From Escherichia phage EC100: 64,000 bases of DNA. Where the stretch lies: the sequence record NC_105587.1. One strand, 5' to 3'. This document shows, one piece after another, positions 3,347 to 18,015 of this stretch. The translations under genes and the position numbers were made by a program. Under the pieces are notes generated by a model. That model searched no databases. It was not told the DNA's origin and saw only the letters and a list, made by a program, of their open reading frames with translations. Positions within the stretch are counted from its first letter, which is position 1; the number at the start of each line of letters is the position of its first letter.

Positions 3347-3544
3347 TTAATTTAAAGGCATCAGGCTAGAACTAACACCACAAGCAACGGCGGCAATAAA
3401 ACAAATCAGACCTAAACGCTTCGCTAACTTAGATTTACGTTTAAAATAATACGAATCTAAATCATTTTGAAAATAAGCGAATAATAGGGAGGCCGCCATA
3501 ATAAATAAGCCTAGAATTAAAGATTCAGTAGGGAAGAAAACCAT
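3347..3544 (-). CDS. small membrane protein
   Basis: 65 aa, two hydrophobic helices. Confidence 0.4.
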   Translation of the reverse strand: MVFFPTESLILGLFIMAASLLFAYFQNDLDSYYFKRKSKLAKRLGLICFIAAVACGVSSSLMPLN

Positions 3545-4617: not shown

Positions 4618-4821
4618 TCAAACAATTTTTTGAGATTTTTTATGATTTTCCCTCAGGTCAATCATAATGTTTCTCCAGATCATTTCTAAACCTTGCTGGC
4701 GACCTTGCAAATATTGCTTGAATCGCCATTTTACAGAATTTTGCGCTACTGTCAACAAGTTTTTTGTTTTGCTATCTAGTGCCTTGCTAGGCTTGCCAGT
4801 GATCAAAAGCGTTTGTTTCAT
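4618..4821 (-). CDS. hypothetical protein
   Basis: 67-aa ORF, weak RBS. Confidence 0.3.
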   Translation of the reverse strand: MKQTLLITGKPSKALDSKTKNLLTVAQNSVKWRFKQYLQGRQQGLEMIWRNIMIDLRENHKKSQKIV

Positions 4822-5332
4822 ATCGTCGATTCCTTATAATGAATAAGTTTACCGCCGATAGGCTTTAAGATATACCCAATTTTTAAAGAGCGTGGCGGTA
4901 AACTTCCCGCCGTGTAGTTCGTCATTGCCGCCCTACGAGATAAATAATAACAAACAACGAAAAAGGCGCAACCTTATTTTTGTAAAGAAATGTAAAGACA
5001 AACGCCACCGGACACCATGCGGCGATCTGGGCGCAGCGCATTAAAATTAAAAGAAACGGGCGCGCGATTACCACAAAATAAAGCAGATATGCAAGTAATT
5101 TTTTCATTTATATTTGCTTTGCCCTACTTGACAAAATCCAAAAAGCTCATGGCGGCGATAAACGGCTTATCCCCTTATGATGGGATGGCTAAAAACTTTA
5201 TTGCGTTCTGGAGCGTTTTAGGCCGCTTATTTTCGACTTAACAAATCATTAACATAAGCAAAATTGAAAAATAGTTTGAAAAGATCTTGACTTTTAAAAA
5301 TCAAGATCAAATGACTTATTTTATAAAATAAA

Positions 5333-6417: not shown

Positions 6418-7427
6418 TGAGGCTGTATAAACCTGATAATGCCACCGTATTAAAGGGTGCATTGCGCAACCTGCTGGACGGTAGCAAGTCAACCAGCATT
6501 AAACATTTTATTAACAAGATTGAAACTACTCATCAAAACTTTTTTGATGACTATGATGCCTATGATATGGATAGTTTTTTGCCGTTGTATAAACAAGGGG
6601 CAACGCTTGTTTTATATAACCGTGATTGCCATATCTTTACAGGCAGGGGAGCAGGGCCGGATACCGATTTTATTGTTGCGCAGGGTAATAATATTGTTGC
6701 GTATCATAGCAATTCAGGCCGTCAATCATTTAATATAAATGTTTTTGAGCTTATTGGGCTTGATCTGATAAACGGACTTTCTAGCATTGAGGGATTTTTA
6801 GATGTTATCTGGAAGCATTTACCAGCTGGATGGTATAAGCCGGATAACGACGGATCTCAATATACTGGTATAATGGCTTTTGATGGCGATGGTAATTTTT
6901 TGTTACCACGGGAGTTATACCCGTATATTTATGATGGGGATATAGAAAGCGCTGGTTTTTCTTTCTGGAAAGATGAAGATCAGATTATTGACAGCGTAGA
7001 AAACCATGCTGTAAATTCTAACACTCAAAACGTTAATACTCAAACTACTGAAAACAAAGGAAAAAATACCATGACCAAGATTGCTAACATCGTTGCCGCC
7101 AATAAATCCGCTGTTGTAAACGCTGCAAAACTGGAAGCGGGTAAAATTGCATTAACTCAAATCACGAAAGTAGCGGCTAAAAAAGCACCGTTTATGATTA
7201 AAGGTTATATTGATACGCCTATCGGTCGAGTAGTAATTGCTAACCTGCTGAGTGTGGCGGTTGACCAGTACGCACCGACTAACCAAAAGGCGAAAGCGGT
7301 AGCAGGCGCGGCTATGGAAGCGGCAATGCTGGAAATGGTGCAAAGTTTTAACATCGCTGAAATGATTGATGAAATGGTGAAAGGTATTGATATTTCTACT
7401 TTTACCACTAGCACCGAAAGCGAGTAA
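6418..7427 (+). CDS. hypothetical protein
   Basis: ORF trimmed to ATG 6418 preceded by GAGGGAGG RBS; ~336 aa. Confidence 0.55.
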
Positions 7428-7436
7428 TAATATTTG

Positions 7437-7460
7437 GCGGGGATTGTTTCCCCGCTTTAC
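7437..7460 (+). terminator. rho-independent terminator
   Basis: GCGGGGA-loop-TCCCCGC then T-rich. Confidence 0.5.
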
Positions 7461-7492
7461 TATTCCCTTGTTAATTAATAGGAGGCTAATAA

Positions 7493-7987
7493 ATGGCTGA
7501 GGAAAAATACGGGTTTTCGCTAGGGGAGGAGAGCAAGGCAAAACATGATATGATCATTTTGGTCGATTGTCATACTGGCTATTGCGGTGAAGGGAATACT
7601 GAGGAATATTTTGTTCCTGCTGGTACGGATCTCGACGCTTTCGCCCATGAAATGGCTGTTGATAATGCTTCTCGTTTTGGTAGCGATGGTTACGAAGACG
7701 AAGAAACGGGCGATTGGTATGAGAATGATAATGTATATGCAAGCCTTTATCATTATCAATTAAGTAAATCCGGCACATATGTAAACGGCGGTGATCCTAT
7801 TAATTCCGTCATGAAATTAATTATTAAATATGGCGGCGTCGAGATAGTCGATAACAAAGCGGTAATATATGCAAACCGATTAAAACAGCTTGTTTATATC
7901 CCTGATAGTACCCGATGGGAGGAATATGCTGTTTTGCATGATGAATTAAAACGATGTTTCAATATTGAAACCTTACAAGTAGTTTAA
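7493..7987 (+). CDS. hypothetical protein
   Basis: 164 aa; AGGAGG RBS; followed by terminator. Confidence 0.55.
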   Translation: MAEEKYGFSLGEESKAKHDMIILVDCHTGYCGEGNTEEYFVPAGTDLDAFAHEMAVDNASRFGSDGYEDEETGDWYENDNVYASLYHYQLSKSGTYVNGGDPINSVMKLIIKYGGVEIVDNKAVIYANRLKQLVYIPDSTRWEEYAVLHDELKRCFNIETLQVV

Positions 7988-8000
7988 TGTAAAGTTTTGT

Positions 8001-8028
8001 AAAGGCCGCCTCTTATGGCGGCCTTTTT
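8001..8028 (+). terminator. rho-independent terminator
   Basis: AGGCCGCC-TCTTA-GGCGGCCT then TTTTTTGTT. Confidence 0.65.
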
Positions 8029-8094
8029 TGTTATAATGCCCTTACACCGTTTGAGGACGGTTGAAAATTTTCCCAAAAATTTTGGAGGCTTATA

Positions 8095-8325
8095 ATGGTT
8101 GCTTATTCTTCTTCTGACGCTCTTTTCACTGGAAAAGGTTGGGTATCAAATCGCTGGATCATTCAAGAAATGGTGCAAGAATACGGCATTGCTAAAACTT
8201 ACACTACCATTCAGGCGCTTTATGATAATGATCAAATCGATCAGCAAACGGCGGGCTTTTTACTGGATACCCTGAAGGCGGAACACTGTACTAAAAAACA
8301 AGCCGCAAAAATTATTTTAATGTAA
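8095..8325 (+). CDS. hypothetical protein
   Basis: 76 aa, GGAGG RBS. Confidence 0.5.
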   Translation: MVAYSSSDALFTGKGWVSNRWIIQEMVQEYGIAKTYTTIQALYDNDQIDQQTAGFLLDTLKAEHCTKKQAAKIILM

Positions 8326-8371
8326 CTAATAACGGGGCGTTACTTTCGCCCCACTAACTAGGGGAATAAAA

Positions 8372-8518
8372 ATGGTTATTTTTCGAGCTATTCTAGCAGG
8401 TATCTTGGGCGCTATTTTATCCTTTTTTGCTATAGCTTTCGACGTTCACGCGGTTATTATTGGTGCGGGTATCGCTGTTTTTTCTTATTTGCTGGGCTGC
8501 ATGAATAAAGGAGAATAA
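8372..8518 (+). CDS. tiny membrane protein
   Basis: 48-aa hydrophobic ORF (below ORF-track cutoff), GGGGAA RBS. Confidence 0.35.
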   Translation: MVIFRAILAGILGAILSFFAIAFDVHAVIIGAGIAVFSYLLGCMNKGE

Positions 8519-8520
8519 AA

Positions 8521-8733
8521 ATGATTCGTAACGTTTCCCTTGCTCGTTCAAAGGGTTTTAAGCTGGTGGACGTTAACACGTTCGAGCGGGAAGATTGTAA
8601 AATCGAATATGTAGCACGGAATAAAAACGCCTTTCGTGTTACAGAAAAGAGATTCGATAAGCGCGGCAACGTGATAGCTGAAACGGTTAAATATTTTGCC
8701 ACCTTTTACGCGGCCTTTCGTGGGGTGCTATGA
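8521..8733 (+). CDS. hypothetical protein
   Basis: 70 aa, start abuts previous stop. Confidence 0.45.
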   Translation: MIRNVSLARSKGFKLVDVNTFEREDCKIEYVARNKNAFRVTEKRFDKRGNVIAETVKYFATFYAAFRGVL

Positions 8734-8855
8734 AAAGCGTTGTTATTATTATCCTTGCAATGGTTGGCGGTTTTACCGCCACCTTATTTAAGAATGATCC
8801 CCTTTTACTGGGGATTTTTATGCTTTTATCTGGTTACCTGATTGGGAGGTTATAA
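8730..8855 (+). CDS. tiny membrane protein
   Basis: 41-aa hydrophobic ORF, ATG overlaps upstream stop (ATGA). Confidence 0.35.
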   Translation: MKSVVIIILAMVGGFTATLFKNDPLLLGIFMLLSGYLIGRL

Positions 8856-8856
8856 A

Positions 8857-9201
8857 ATGGTAATTTATGAGGGCAATCGCTTTGTTGCTAATTGCCGCCC
8901 GGCATTATTAGCAAACTACTTAAATCAGCTTTCACCTGAATATAAAGGCGTCATAAATATTTACGAGGGAAAGGCGCATTATAAGATCAACGCGGTCGTT
9001 GCCCGTGAACTAGCATTTCAATTTTTGACCTTCGCATCTTGTGATATTCAGGTCATGGGTGAGGCGTTAATTGCAGAAAATGAAGACGATTTTATTAATA
9101 TTTTTCGCAAGGTGTGCACCGAGCGCCTGATCATGAAAGGCGCGTATATTCAGTCAACTGCGGAAAGTATTGAAACAGCATTTAGGAAGGTGGCGCAATG
9201 A
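8857..9201 (+). CDS. hypothetical protein
   Basis: ORF trimmed to ATG 8857 (GGGAGG RBS). Confidence 0.5.
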   Translation: MVIYEGNRFVANCRPALLANYLNQLSPEYKGVINIYEGKAHYKINAVVARELAFQFLTFASCDIQVMGEALIAENEDDFINIFRKVCTERLIMKGAYIQSTAESIETAFRKVAQ

Positions 9202-9356
9202 AAAAAATTTTGATAGCTGGTATGTTTCCTTTGTTGCCTTATGTAATTTGCTGGGCTTTATATGCTCATGGTGCTAGTGTTCCCGGTGTGGCTTCATTTG
9301 GTGTATCGGCTGGTTTTCTAACCGGACTATTGGCAAGCGTATATTTACGCAAATAA
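9198..9356 (+). CDS. tiny membrane protein
   Basis: 52-aa hydrophobic ORF, ATG overlaps upstream stop. Confidence 0.35.
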   Translation: MKKILIAGMFPLLPYVICWALYAHGASVPGVASFGVSAGFLTGLLASVYLRK

Positions 9357-9374
9357 TTAATAACGGGAGTTATT

Positions 9375-9569
9375 ATGAGCAATAAAATTATTGTGACCAA
9401 AACTAGTACAATGGTTGATGTTTTTTACGTGCCCGATACGCCGGAAAACCGACAAGCGGTCGAGCGTGGCGAGTATGATAAAGTGATTTATGATCACGAT
9501 GGTTATTACCAGTATTTGGTCGATTCCTACGGGGAGGAGGAGAAGATCACGCATCAATTACCGGACTGA
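9375..9569 (+). CDS. hypothetical protein
   Basis: 64 aa, GGGAG RBS, followed by terminator. Confidence 0.5.
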   Translation: MSNKIIVTKTSTMVDVFYVPDTPENRQAVERGEYDKVIYDHDGYYQYLVDSYGEEEKITHQLPD

Positions 9570-9575
9570 CAACAA

Positions 9576-9598
9576 GCGGGGAGCAGATCCCCGTTTTT
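9576..9598 (+). terminator. rho-independent terminator ending + strand operon
   Basis: CGGGGA-GCAGA-TCCCCG then TTTTTC. Confidence 0.6.
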
Positions 9599-9750
9599 CA
9601 GGCCTGCAATCAGATACCCCTTTGTTTTAGTATCCCCGCCAAAATTAAACGCGTTAGAATGCGATTCAGGACGTTTTAAGCCTATATTAGAATTATTCAC
9701 TGCATAGGAATACTGTATATTTATACAGTAGAATAACCTGGGGATAAGTC

Positions 9751-17297: not shown

Positions 17298-17326
17298 AAC
17301 TTAAGCATTTTAGCAAATAAAACTTT
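17298..17326 (-). promoter_or_regulatory. strong sigma70 early promoter
   Basis: TTGCTA/17 bp/TATAAT, A-tract. Confidence 0.6.
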
Positions 17327-17424
17327 TAATTAAAATGCCTAATCCTGTACCAATAGCAATACAAATGATTATAAGTATTGCTATCGCTTGTATGATTCGT
17401 TTAATAATAGCCTCAGCTATATAC

Positions 17425-18015
17425 TCAGACATTTATATCACCACGTAATACAGCAGCTACGTCTTCCCCTATTTGTAATACCTCGCCGGTAGTACAATTA
17501 ACTACTCTATCATAGCTAGTAAACTTACCAGACACAATATCCTCTAGCGGAATTGGAGTTTTACTCATTTCAAATGAAACGTTGATATAACGTGGATCAC
17601 GTAGAGAAGTAGTATGTACGTGTCCATGAATATTTAGTTTGCCACGAAGTTCATTGGGGTGCAAAGGGCAGTGAGATAGCCAAAACTTTTTGCCACCTCC
17701 AGTCTGTTTACCTAGAGCCTGAATATCATCATAAACTTCTGCTAAGTCCCTAATGCTCAGTCCTTGACGTTCCGCATCATGATTACCCATAATGAGTTGG
17801 TTAGGAACATTGTGGATAACCGACTTTAATTTGGCCAGACCTTCACGACCTACTGCAATATCCCCTAGCAAAATAAGTTTTGTTCGTTTACCAATATGCT
17901 TGGACAAAGTGTCTAGAATATACTCATCGTGCTCCTTCATGTTCTTAAACCACGGACGGAAACGTAACGCTCCAGGGTGGTCTAGGTGCAAGTCTGACCA
18001 GAATTTAACTTTCAT
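17425..18015 (-). CDS. metallophosphoesterase (calcineurin-like)
   Basis: 196 aa; 'DLHLDHP', 'GDIAVG', 'GNHD', 'GHVH' motifs. Confidence 0.7.
   Translation of the reverse strand: MKVKFWSDLHLDHPGALRFRPWFKNMKEHDEYILDTLSKHIGKRTKLILLGDIAVGREGLAKLKSVIHNVPNQLIMGNHDAERQGLSIRDLAEVYDDIQALGKQTGGGKKFWLSHCPLHPNELRGKLNIHGHVHTTSLRDPRYINVSFEMSKTPIPLEDIVSGKFTSYDRVVNCTTGEVLQIGEDVAAVLRGDINV

What the first reader, a model, noticed from the sequence alone, without database searches (positions are those of the whole stretch)
8372..9356. Three tiny hydrophobic ORFs (41-52 aa) interleaved in the + strand pre-early operon
ORFs at 8372-8518, 8730-8855 and 9198-9356 are below the ORF-track cutoff but have start codons overlapping upstream stops (ATGA) and encode single or double TM helices. 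Small membrane peptides made at the very start of infection could act on the inner membrane, for example in superinfection exclusion or control of second-step transfer.
Basis: inference. Interest (0 to 1): 0.35.

Follow-up and report, generated by a model that had tools for sequence, protein, structure and literature searches.

The report
Tiny membrane-protein genes, T5-like phage
These are three real, already annotated genes for 41-52-residue membrane proteins in the first DNA segment that a T5-like phage injects; one is the counterpart of T5 gene 013, which damages E. coli when over-expressed, and all three are optional, swappable cassettes whose natural role is still unknown.

Summary
The window is Escherichia phage EC122, a T5 relative. 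All three ORFs exist at the stated coordinates and are already annotated there as hypothetical proteins. Each matches a PHROG family of unknown function over its full length.

They are genuine coding genes. dN/dS is 0.16, 0.19 and 0.07 in frame, against 0.5-8 out of frame. Each has a Shine-Dalgarno site, and each has two hydrophobic segments with basic residues at both ends. The ATGA overlap holds for ORF2 and ORF3 only.

ORF1 is the ortholog of T5 gene 013. A 2026 preprint reports that gene 013 is toxic and lysis-inducing when expressed alone. The same preprint shows that T5 remains viable after deletion of hegG-017, so control of second-step transfer is not supported. ORF2 and ORF3 are absent from T5 itself. 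Among 436 related phage records, the three families occur in about 84%, 36% and 9%.

New here: the three gene junctions act as slots. They hold several apparently unrelated tiny hydrophobic ORFs or stay empty, and they reassort freely.

Most likely they are accessory inner-membrane hairpin proteins that perturb the membrane or a membrane target. Their natural role is untested; phage competition or defence is a guess. The finding is ordinary and largely known, and of modest interest.

The parts
8001..8026 (+). Terminator-like hairpin plus T-run that closes the upstream unit; the promoter region of the small-ORF operon follows (TATAAT at about 8031-8036)
   Evidence: 10-bp stem, 7 GC pairs, T-run. 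BF23 and T5 records annotate a terminator, and BF23 also a predicted pre-early promoter, at the equivalent place.
8095..8325 (+). 76-aa soluble protein, homolog of T5.012 (phrog_5145); left anchor of slot A
   Evidence: 97% identical to T5 7624-7854
8334..8352 (+). Conserved RNA hairpin GGGGCG-TTACTTT-CGCCCC between the 76-aa gene and ORF1, with no T-run after it
   Evidence: dG -12.8 kcal/mol; identical in T5 and in locus L035, which lacks ORF1
8372..8518 (+). ORF1, 48 aa, two hydrophobic segments. Ortholog of T5 gp013 (short-turn variant), phrog_5607; occupies slot A
8521..8733 (+). 70-aa soluble protein, homolog of T5.014 (phrog_4227); anchor between slots A and B
8730..8855 (+). ORF2, 41 aa, two short hydrophobic segments, phrog_19184. 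Occupies slot B; start overlaps the upstream stop (ATGA). Absent from T5
8857..9201 (+). 114-aa soluble protein, homolog of T5.015. This is the gene that Annor et al. cloned as 015, the Ung-dependent nickase. Anchor between slots B and C
9198..9356 (+). ORF3, 52 aa, two hydrophobic segments. The second carries GxxxGxxxGxxxS (G35, G39, G43, S47). phrog_35622; occupies slot C; start overlaps the upstream stop (ATGA). Absent from T5 and BF23
9375..9569 (+). 64-aa soluble protein, homolog of T5.017 (phrog_6973); right anchor of slot C and last gene of the operon
9577..9598 (+). Hairpin CGGGGAGCAGATCCCCG followed by TTTTT; likely terminator of the operon, just before the injection-stop repeat region
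   Evidence: The scan reported this hairpin on the minus strand only; the + strand T-run was read directly from the sequence. BF23 and T5 annotate a terminator at the equivalent place.

Best explanation
The three ORFs are translated genes for very small inner-membrane proteins. Each is predicted to be a two-helix hairpin with both ends in the cytoplasm. They are made in the first minutes of infection from the right-hand pre-early operon of a T5-like phage.

They are accessory, not core. They sit as exchangeable cassettes in three gene junctions between conserved soluble pre-early genes, and they are translationally coupled to their neighbours. They are gained, lost and replaced by other tiny hydrophobic ORFs with no detectable similarity.

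The most likely way of working is direct action in the membrane. The protein inserts, packs or self-associates through faces of small residues (G/A/S), and locally perturbs the inner membrane or a protein embedded in it. At natural dose this would give a conditional advantage in host takeover, competition with other phages, or evasion of envelope-linked defence. At high dose it compromises envelope integrity, as published for T5 gp013, the ortholog of ORF1.

Shown: coding status, purifying selection, cassette mosaicism, orthology of ORF1 to gp013, and (from the literature) the toxicity and dispensability of gp013. Inferred: topology, membrane location, any activity of ORF2 and ORF3, and the physiological role.
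For: Coding and selection. In-frame dN/dS is 0.16, 0.19 and 0.07, against 0.5-8 out of frame. The reading frames are intact in all homologs, which number 25, 15 and 7 distinct sequences. SD motifs are present. All three are annotated CDSs and match PHROG families over their full length.

Membrane character. Each has two hydrophobic segments, a polar turn and basic termini. The long T5-type variant of ORF1 carries an 11-residue polar, Pro-containing insert exactly at the predicted turn. AlphaFold draws ORF3 as helix-turn-helix: 3-23, turn, 29-51, pLDDT 67.

Orthology. ORF1 and T5.013 share an identical first 16 and last 21 residues and the same position between the 012 and 014 homologs. The primers used by Annor et al. 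for gene 013 encode MVIFRAIL...GCMNKGE.

Published function. gp013 is toxic in E. coli F and DH5alpha and gives shrunken, non-refractile, DAPI-negative cells. It is noted there as the only toxic pre-early protein with two predicted TM domains. T5 lacking hegG-017 is viable with smaller plaques.

Accessory cassette behaviour. The operon DNA occurs in 436 phage records. ORF1 occurs in 366, ORF2 in 158 and ORF3 in 41, all of them T5-like phages of enterobacterial hosts. All eight combinations of ORF1 short/long, ORF2 present/absent and ORF3 present/absent are observed. Slots A, B and C also hold further families of tiny hydrophobic ORFs, or are empty. One of these (MIQQIKTAFRFWG..., 40 aa) is itself under purifying selection, omega 0.24. 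Cassette borders coincide with the ATGA or GGAGxxTAAAATG junction motifs.
Against: There is no direct evidence of translation, membrane location or activity for the EC122 proteins. No experiment of any kind exists for the ORF2 or ORF3 families.

Mahata et al. 2021 did not score T5.013 as toxic. The lysis phenotype therefore depends on dose or strain and may be an over-expression artefact common to hydrophobic peptides.

AlphaFold models the 48-aa ORF1 as one continuous helix (2-45, pLDDT 78), so the hairpin topology of the short variant is not secure. ORF2's second segment has only 15 uninterrupted residues, which is short for a membrane span.

Small-xxx-small motifs are common in membrane helices and prove nothing on their own. 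The ORF3 family is at least 90% identical everywhere, so selection is measured on few changes. The proposed physiological role is pure inference.
Confidence: 0.55

Rival explanations
1. They are dedicated superinfection-exclusion proteins. From the inner membrane each cassette specifically blocks genome entry of particular competing phages, as T4 Imm, HK97 gp15 or P22 SieA do. This is distinct from generic membrane perturbation.
For: They are expressed at the earliest possible time and have a predicted inner-membrane location. The patchy, freely reassorting distribution with several alternative families per slot is what an arms race between phages would produce. Depolarisation or membrane damage is known to impede entry of co-infecting lambda (PMC10274716). 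T5 adsorption is insensitive to host metabolic state (PMC13493124), so a T5-like phage could afford this strategy.
Against: No sequence or profile similarity to any known exclusion protein (Pfam, PHROGs, NCBIfam). T5-like phages already exclude their own kind with the lipoprotein Llp at the receptor (PMC9586334, listed). No exclusion phenotype has been tested for any member.
Confidence: 0.15
2. They are specific inhibitors of host membrane proteins, for example envelope-anchored abortive-infection or defence systems, transporters or proteases. They bind these within the bilayer, and each cassette matches a different host target.
For: They are dispensable in laboratory K-12/F hosts, yet under purifying selection and variably present among phages of Escherichia, Salmonella, Klebsiella and Citrobacter. 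That is the expected pattern for host-specific counter-defence genes. Annor et al. explicitly raise conditional essentiality in hosts with other defence systems.
Against: No partner is known. There is no clear association with host genus in the counts: ORF1, ORF2 and ORF3 all occur in both Escherichia and Salmonella phages. There are no hits to defence-related profiles. The gp013 phenotype is loss of cell integrity rather than a silent phenotype.
Confidence: 0.2
3. They regulate the pause and resumption of DNA entry (second-step transfer) at the inner membrane.
For: They are made during the pause and are predicted to sit in the membrane through which the remaining DNA must pass. From my own knowledge, T5 DNA entry is accompanied by two phases of ion efflux (Boulanger and Letellier 1992, cited).
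Against: T5 retaining only A1, A2, hdi and 009 completes infection, so second-step transfer does not need gene 013 or its neighbours. CRISPRi-ART found A1 and A2, not these genes, to be the fitness determinants. ORF2 and ORF3 are absent from T5 and most relatives, and some loci have all the corresponding slots empty.
Confidence: 0.03
4. They act mainly in cis, as translated spacers that couple ribosomes to the downstream soluble genes, so that the peptide itself is irrelevant.
For: The junctions are extremely tight: ATGA overlaps, 1-2 nt gaps, and the SD of each downstream gene lies inside the 3' end of the small ORF.
Against: Amino-acid sequence is conserved well beyond what coupling needs (omega 0.07-0.19). 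In genomes with empty slots the same downstream genes carry their own SD or couple directly to the upstream gene. Cassettes with no detectable sequence similarity are all strongly hydrophobic, which a spacer role would not require.
Confidence: 0.05
5. They are chance ORFs or decaying remnants that gene callers picked up.
For: They are very short, have no known function, and hydrophobic ORFs arise easily in T-rich sequence. Slot C does contain decayed remnants in some phages: the BF23 31-aa ORF and the L007 deletion.
Against: Frame-specific purifying selection, intact frames in all homologs, and SD sites. An ORF2 homolog at 51% identity keeps the frame and the motif GGF.AT.FK.DP..LG......GYL.GRL.
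Confidence: 0.02

Closest known systems
Phage T5 gp013 (locus tag T5.013, YP_006841; phrog_5607)
   Same: ORF1 is its ortholog. It occupies the same position between the 012 and 014 homologs, has an identical N-terminal 16 and C-terminal 21 residues, and has the same two hydrophobic segments. The T5 record has long noted it as containing two transmembrane domains.
   Different: ORF1 is the short variant (48 aa against 59). It lacks the 11-residue polar loop (QDSYCGLVNTKP), leaving only D-V-H at the turn. Both variants circulate in the group. The toxicity data exist only for the long T5 form.
T5.005 membrane protein (phrog_4820; window 3347-3544, minus strand)
   Same: It is another small (65 aa) pre-early protein with two hydrophobic segments in the same first-step-transfer DNA, and it is dispensable in T5.
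   Different: No significant sequence similarity to ORF1-3 after allowing for multiple comparisons. It lies in the leftward A1-A2 operon. It has a long charged loop (KRKSKLAKR). It is conserved across more of the Demerecviridae.
Inner-membrane superinfection-exclusion proteins (T4 Imm, HK97 gp15, P22 SieA)
   Same: They are small phage-encoded inner-membrane proteins acting on DNA entry, with moron-like, patchy distribution. This comparison rests on my own knowledge and on references seen.
   Different: No homology. The known examples are larger. No exclusion activity has been tested here.
Type I toxin peptides (Hok, TisB; S. aureus PepA1, PDB 4B19)
   Same: They share the size, the strong hydrophobicity and membrane damage on over-expression. 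The only PDB hit of the ORF1 profile is PepA1, with ViiGAgiAvFSYLLG aligned to VISGCAIAFFSYWLS.
   Different: The match is not significant (E 0.26-0.46). Those toxins have one membrane segment and an antisense-RNA antitoxin. These ORFs have two segments and sit in a phage operon.
Class II holins and pinholins (e.g. phage 21 S68)
   Same: Two membrane segments with N-in/C-in topology and lysis on expression. This comparison rests on my own knowledge.
   Different: They are expressed pre-early rather than late and are not next to an endolysin or spanin. There is no charged C-terminal tail and no holin profile hit. They are smaller than any described holin.
Morons and mobile gene cassettes at phage gene boundaries (lambdoid morons; T4-type promoter-stem-loop cassettes)
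   Same: Precise insertion of small accessory genes at gene junctions, with short conserved border sequences and free reassortment.
   Different: Here the cassettes carry no promoter or terminator of their own. They are spliced into a translationally coupled operon through the stop/start junction itself (ATGA or GGAGxxTAAAATG).

Membership tests
T5 gp013 family (phrog_5607) | Full-length sequence match to the family | tested here: met
   E 1.8e-29, residues 1-48 on profile positions 1-48 of 49. 23 clusters, all in T5-like phages.
T5 gp013 family (phrog_5607) | Conserved position between the T5.012 and T5.014 homologs in the rightward pre-early operon | tested here: met
T5 gp013 family (phrog_5607) | Two transmembrane segments | tested here: inconclusive
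   Two hydrophobic runs (6-23 and 27-44) with only a 3-residue turn. AlphaFold gives one continuous helix 2-45. The long variant has a clear polar loop.
T5 gp013 family (phrog_5607) | Toxicity with loss of cell integrity on ectopic expression | not testable with these tools
   Reported for T5 gp013 only; contradicted.
phrog_19184 (ORF2 family) | Full-length sequence match and position between the 014 and 015 homologs | tested here: met
   E 2.7e-25, residues 1-41. 158 phage records. 29 clusters, all T5-like. Synteny.
phrog_35622 (ORF3 family) | Full-length sequence match and position between the 015 and 017 homologs | tested here: met
   E 8.8e-38, residues 1-52. 41 phage records, all at least 90% identical. 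3 clusters.
Superinfection-exclusion membrane proteins (Imm, gp15, SieA) | Sequence or profile similarity to a known exclusion protein | tested here: not met
   No Pfam hit reaches its cut-off. PHROG hits are only to families of unknown function. NCBIfam finds nothing.
Superinfection-exclusion membrane proteins (Imm, gp15, SieA) | Blocks genome entry of a superinfecting phage | not testable with these tools
   Needs plating and DNA-entry assays.
Class II holin / pinholin | Late expression in a lysis cassette next to an endolysin or spanin | tested here: not met
   The genes lie in the pre-early operon between soluble host-takeover genes.
Class II holin / pinholin | Match to a holin profile | tested here: not met
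Type I toxin peptides | Significant similarity to a known toxin family | tested here: not met
   Best hit is PepA1 at E 0.26 over 18 residues. No Pfam hit.
Type I toxin peptides | Antisense RNA antitoxin overlapping the toxin mRNA | not tested
   Minus-strand promoter-like hits exist in the region but were not examined.
Lipoprotein receptor blockers (T5 Llp, Cor) | Signal peptide with a lipobox cysteine | tested here: not met
   By inspection of the sequences: ORF1 has only C43, ORF2 has no Cys, and ORF3 C18 is preceded by Y-V-I, which is not a lipobox.
Known anti-phage defence proteins (PADLOC) | Match to a defence-system profile | tested here: not met
   No hits at E <= 1.

The most novel reading that the evidence does not exclude
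The three stop/start junctions of the rightward pre-early operon of T5-like phages form a hypervariable array for micro-membrane-proteins. It would be a plug-in arsenal of several unrelated 30-60-residue hairpin or single-span peptides, spliced in through the ATGA or SD-TAA-ATG junctions and reassorted freely. Each would target a different membrane-level competitor or host defence in the first minute of infection. The strategy would be affordable because T5-type DNA entry does not depend on an energised membrane.
Probability: 0.25. Interest if true: 0.55.

Novelty: already known. Interest (0 to 1): 0.25.

Why it matters
As stated, the finding adds little. The genes are annotated, sit in PHROG families, and ORF1's T5 counterpart has already been cloned, expressed and deleted.

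What could matter is the pattern around them. The earliest-expressed DNA of a classic model phage carries a rotating set of tiny membrane proteins that are under selection yet dispensable in laboratory hosts. Genes of that kind often turn out to be exclusion or counter-defence factors.

The analysis gives a concrete short list for testing: ORF1/gp013 short and long forms, ORF2, ORF3, and the MIQQIK and MAVYIALL families. It also flags that shotgun proteomics is unlikely to see ORF1 and ORF3. Their only tryptic peptides of useful size are 41 and 48 hydrophobic residues long.

Finally, it exposes a probable one-gene shift in the public label for the Ung-dependent nickase, which is propagating through RefSeq and PHROGs.

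Tried and rejected
Function by homology gave nothing.
- Pfam (E up to 10), NCBIfam and PADLOC gave nothing above noise for any of the three ORFs.
- Three searches of the 5.8-billion-protein collection found only T5-like phage proteins.
- A full HMMER scan of the ORF1 profile against 1.84 billion representatives found only the family itself plus three multi-stretch hydrophobic chance hits.
- PDB sequence searches gave one non-significant hit, PepA1 at E 0.26, and nothing else.

I tested whether ORF1 and ORF2 are paralogs. hhalign gives probability 21%. The shuffle p of about 0.01 does not survive 21 comparisons. My first BLAST clustering had merged them, and I treat that link as spurious.

AlphaFold models are of limited use at this size. 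ORF1 comes out as a single helix and ORF3 as a low-confidence hairpin, so I did not run fold searches on them.

A second scan of IMG/VR with the 70-aa protein returned the same genomes as the first.

I looked for direct evidence of expression in the Bas33 transcriptome and proteome paper. Transcript values are available, but the proteomics table is not held. Davison's 2015 review of pre-early genes is not held.

Holin, lipoprotein, signal-peptide and second-step-transfer readings were considered and rejected (see membership tests and rivals).
Full report
WHAT THE WINDOW IS. The region 7400-9700 is 100% identical, at the same coordinates, to Escherichia phage EC122 (ON185583.1; Demerecviridae, Markadamsvirinae, Tequintavirus). 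It is about 90% identical to many T5-like phages, including BF23. The finding lies in the left end of the genome. In T5 and BF23 this end is the terminal repeat that enters the cell first, the first-step-transfer or pre-early DNA.

OBSERVATION. The three ORFs are there as described: 8372-8518 (48 aa), 8730-8855 (41 aa) and 9198-9356 (52 aa). They are not unannotated. The GenBank record lists all three as hypothetical proteins. Each matches a PHROG family of unknown function over its full length: phrog_5607, phrog_19184 and phrog_35622, with E values from 1e-25 to 1e-37.

The ATGA start/stop overlap is true for ORF2 and ORF3. ORF1 instead begins 46 nt after the upstream stop, behind a conserved GC hairpin at 8334-8352, and is separated by 2 nt from the start of the next gene. 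All three have SD-like motifs.

They are among the most hydrophobic small ORFs in the whole window, ranking 2nd, 3rd and about 7th of 94. Each shows two hydrophobic segments, a polar turn, and K/R residues near both ends.

ARE THEY GENES? I collected 84 related loci from IMG/VR and GenBank. I made codon alignments from the 40 loci in hand at that stage. These gave 25, 15 and 7 distinct sequences for ORF1, ORF2 and ORF3.
- In-frame dN/dS is 0.16, 0.19 and 0.07. That is the same range as the flanking soluble genes (0.07-0.15).
- Read in the other two frames, the same alignments give 0.5-8 and contain stops.
- Variable sites pile up at codon position 3 (p = 0.001, 0.016 and 0.0004).
- An Epseptimavirus homolog of ORF2 at only 51% identity keeps the frame. 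It uses a TTG start overlapping the upstream TGA and keeps the motif GGF.AT.FK.DP..LG......GYL.GRL.

The peptides themselves are therefore under purifying selection. Chance ORFs and purely cis-acting spacers are excluded as main explanations.

DISTRIBUTION. In the phage collection the operon DNA is found in 436 records. The ORF1 family is in 366, ORF2 in 158 and ORF3 in 41. These counts include duplicate GenBank/RefSeq entries.

All hits are T5-like phages of Escherichia, Salmonella, Shigella, Klebsiella, Citrobacter and Yersinia. Searches of 5.8 billion proteins found 23, 29 and 3 clusters for ORF1, ORF2 and ORF3, again all T5-like. A full HMMER scan of 1.84 billion representatives with the ORF1 profile found nothing beyond the family. 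Pfam, NCBIfam, PADLOC and PDB gave nothing significant.

ANATOMY: AN OPERON WITH THREE SLOTS. A strong terminator (8001-8026) and a promoter-like region open a compact unit that ends at a hairpin plus T-run (9577-9598). Its conserved backbone has four soluble genes:
- 76 aa, homolog of T5.012
- 70 aa, homolog of T5.014
- 114 aa, homolog of T5.015
- 64 aa, homolog of T5.017

These are 85-99% identical across most of the loci examined; the 76-aa and 64-aa genes fall to about 70% in the most distant ones. The three junctions between them behave as slots.
- Slot A holds ORF1 in a short (48-51 aa) or long (59-60 aa, T5.013-type) form, or a 31-aa hydrophobic ORF with no detectable similarity, or nothing.
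- Slot B holds ORF2, and/or a 40-aa family (MIQQIKTAFRFWG...), or a 35-aa or a 33-aa hydrophobic ORF, or nothing, as in T5.
- Slot C holds ORF3, or a 53-aa family (MAVYIALL...), or a 35-aa hydrophobic ORF, or T5.016 or its decayed remnants, or nothing.

The 40-aa family is itself under purifying selection, with omega 0.24 against 1.2-1.3 out of frame. The rarer families have too few sequences to judge. Most of these alternatives have no PHROG.

All eight combinations of ORF1 short/long, ORF2 present/absent and ORF3 present/absent occur among about 37 distinct loci. The slots, only 200-500 bp apart, therefore reassort freely.

Cassette borders coincide with the translational junctions. In empty slot C the 114-aa gene's stop overlaps the start of the 64-aa gene (CAATGAGCAATAAA). 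In EC122 the same ATGA starts ORF3, and a second ...TTATTATGAGCAATAAA restores the downstream start. In slot B both the 70-aa gene and ORF2 end in near-identical G-rich ...TTATAAAATGG junctions. The cassettes carry no promoter or terminator of their own.

PROTEIN FEATURES.
- ORF1 has segments 6-23 and 27-44 with only D-V-H between them. The long variant has an 11-residue polar, Pro-containing insert exactly there. That argues for a hairpin with a periplasmic turn. AlphaFold, however, draws the short form as one helix (pLDDT 78).
- ORF2 has segments 3-20 and 25-39 around K-N-D-P.
- ORF3 has a KK N-terminus, segment 4-23, a turn H-G-A-S-V-P-G, and a second helix carrying G35xxxG39xxxG43xxxS47. 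AlphaFold gives helix-turn-helix at low confidence.

Both helices of ORF1 also have stripes of G/A/S. Such motifs favour helix packing and self-association, but they are common, so this is weak evidence. ORF1 and ORF2 are not demonstrably related.

WHAT IS PUBLISHED. ORF1 is the ortholog of T5 gene 013. The primers used by Annor et al. (bioRxiv 10.64898/2026.04.02.716235, Table S1) for T5.013 encode MVIFRAIL... and ...GCMNKGE. The T5 record already notes two transmembrane domains.

That study expressed all 17 pre-early genes. Gene 013 was one of seven toxic ones, in two E. coli strains. It was the only one giving shrunken, non-refractile, DNA-free cells, which the authors interpret as loss of cell integrity. 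Mahata et al. 2021 (PMC8201957) cloned the same gene and did not find it toxic.

A T5 mutant lacking hegG through 017 is viable, with smaller plaques and lower virulence. CRISPRi-ART likewise singled out A1 and A2 among the early-infection genes important for fitness, and did not name these genes.

In the T5 relative Bas33, genes bas33_0170-0175 are by order and length the counterparts of this operon. They include a 189-nt slot A gene, a 126-nt slot B gene and a 162-nt slot C gene. They are transcribed, and change by less than two-fold when daunorubicin arrests infection after first-step transfer (PMC13250531). No experiment exists for the ORF2 or ORF3 families.

HOW IT MOST LIKELY WORKS. I commit to the following, at about 0.55 for the mechanistic core. 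These are translated inner-membrane micro-proteins, most probably N-in/C-in hairpins. They act in the bilayer by perturbing it or a protein in it. They are accessory cassettes with a conditional pay-off.

The shown steps are coding status, selection, mosaic cassette behaviour, orthology to gp013, and the published toxicity and dispensability of gp013. The inferred steps are topology, location, activity of ORF2 and ORF3, and the role.

For the role I rank as follows:
- inhibition of a specific host membrane target or defence, about 0.2
- dedicated exclusion of competing phages, about 0.15
- cis-acting coupling spacer, about 0.05
- control of second-step transfer, about 0.03
- spurious ORFs, about 0.02

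An attractive but untested link is that membrane depolarisation impedes entry of other phages (PMC10274716). T5 adsorption is indifferent to host metabolic state (PMC13493124). From my own knowledge, T5 DNA injection does not need metabolic energy. A T5-like phage could therefore afford mild membrane perturbation as a cheap barrier.

COMPARISON AND NOVELTY. ORF1 is a member of the T5 gp013 family. ORF2 and ORF3 are members of two narrow T5-group families with no characterised member. By resemblance only, they work like small early membrane proteins of other phages (Imm/gp15/SieA-type exclusion factors) or like type I toxin peptides. Every membership test that could be run for those families failed.

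The finding as written is therefore already known, being annotated and partly studied. I did not find the slot organisation and its junction-mediated exchange described in the papers I could read. It is a modest observation.

SIDE OBSERVATION WORTH CORRECTING. RefSeq and phrog_4227 attach the product name 'endonuclease nicking abasic sites generated by host uracil glycosylase Ung' to the 70-aa gene (T5.014; window 8521-8733). Annor et al.'s primers show instead that the gene called 015, the nickase of Mahata et al., is the 114-aa gene MVIYEGNRF...FRKVAQ (window 8857-9201). The public label appears shifted by one gene. I could not see Mahata's own primers.

Noticed in passing
window 8521-8733 versus 8857-9201: The name 'Ung-dependent endonuclease nicking abasic sites' is attached by RefSeq (T5.014, Eps7, S132 and others) and by phrog_4227 to the 70-aa gene. 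The cloning primers of Annor et al. 2026 show that gene 015, the nickase, is the 114-aa gene (MVIYEGNRF...FRKVAQ). The public label seems shifted by one gene.
   Followed up: partly
window 17310-17432, minus strand: An unannotated 40-aa, very hydrophobic ORF (MSEYIAEAIIKRIIQAIAILIIICIAIGTGLGILIKSFIC, GRAVY 1.75, the highest in the window). It fills the gap between two annotated early genes and overlaps the stop of the phosphoesterase CDS by 8 nt. It matches phrog_21849 over its full length.
   Followed up: partly
window 4922-5107, minus strand: An unannotated 61-aa hydrophobic ORF (GRAVY 1.29) between the hdi and hegG homologs. It matches phrog_17446 over its full length but has no obvious SD. 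It lies in the repeat/promoter region where T5 annotates the unrelated 35-aa T5.009.
   Followed up: partly
window 8334-8352: Hairpin GGGGCG-TTACTTT-CGCCCC without a T-run, just upstream of ORF1. It is identical in T5 and in a phage (L035) that lacks ORF1, so it belongs to the backbone rather than the cassette. It may be an RNA processing or stability element or a weak attenuator.
   Followed up: partly
window 6042, 6115 (minus strand); 9751, 9812, 17811 (plus strand): The DnaA-box-like 9-mer TGTGGATAA occurs 5 times against 0.72 expected. It occurs in pairs in the two untranslated repeat regions that flank the rightward pre-early genes, including the injection-stop region.
   Followed up: no
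L002 (BF23) 4799-4894; L007 2842-2870; L003 (T5) 8681-8938: Slot C shows decay as well as exchange. The BF23 31-aa ORF is a remnant containing the start of T5.016 out of context. L007 carries a further deletion between ATATATTT repeats.
   Followed up: partly
Bas33 dataset (PMC13250531, Dataset S1), gene bas33_0173: The 126-nt counterpart of ORF2 has a maximum group mean of 1.6, while its operon neighbours bas33_0170-0175 have 430-594. This is probably an artefact of assigning reads to a tiny gene overlapped on both sides, but I could not check it.
   Followed up: no
window 3347-3544, minus strand: A T5.005 homolog (65 aa, two hydrophobic segments, phrog_4820 'membrane protein') in the leftward pre-early operon. 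This is a fourth small membrane protein in the first-step-transfer DNA. Its deletion in T5 delays lysis by 5 min and tends to raise burst size.
   Followed up: partly
L077 (phage ECOP18) 1637-1759: A 40-aa slot B ORF is annotated in RefSeq as 'iron ABC transporter permease'. This is an obvious over-annotation of a tiny hydrophobic peptide.
   Followed up: no
window 7493-7987: A 164-aa gene (phrog_6741) sits between the 011 and 012 homologs. It is present in EC122 and BF23 but absent from T5, so larger genes of the rightward pre-early region are also variably present.
   Followed up: no
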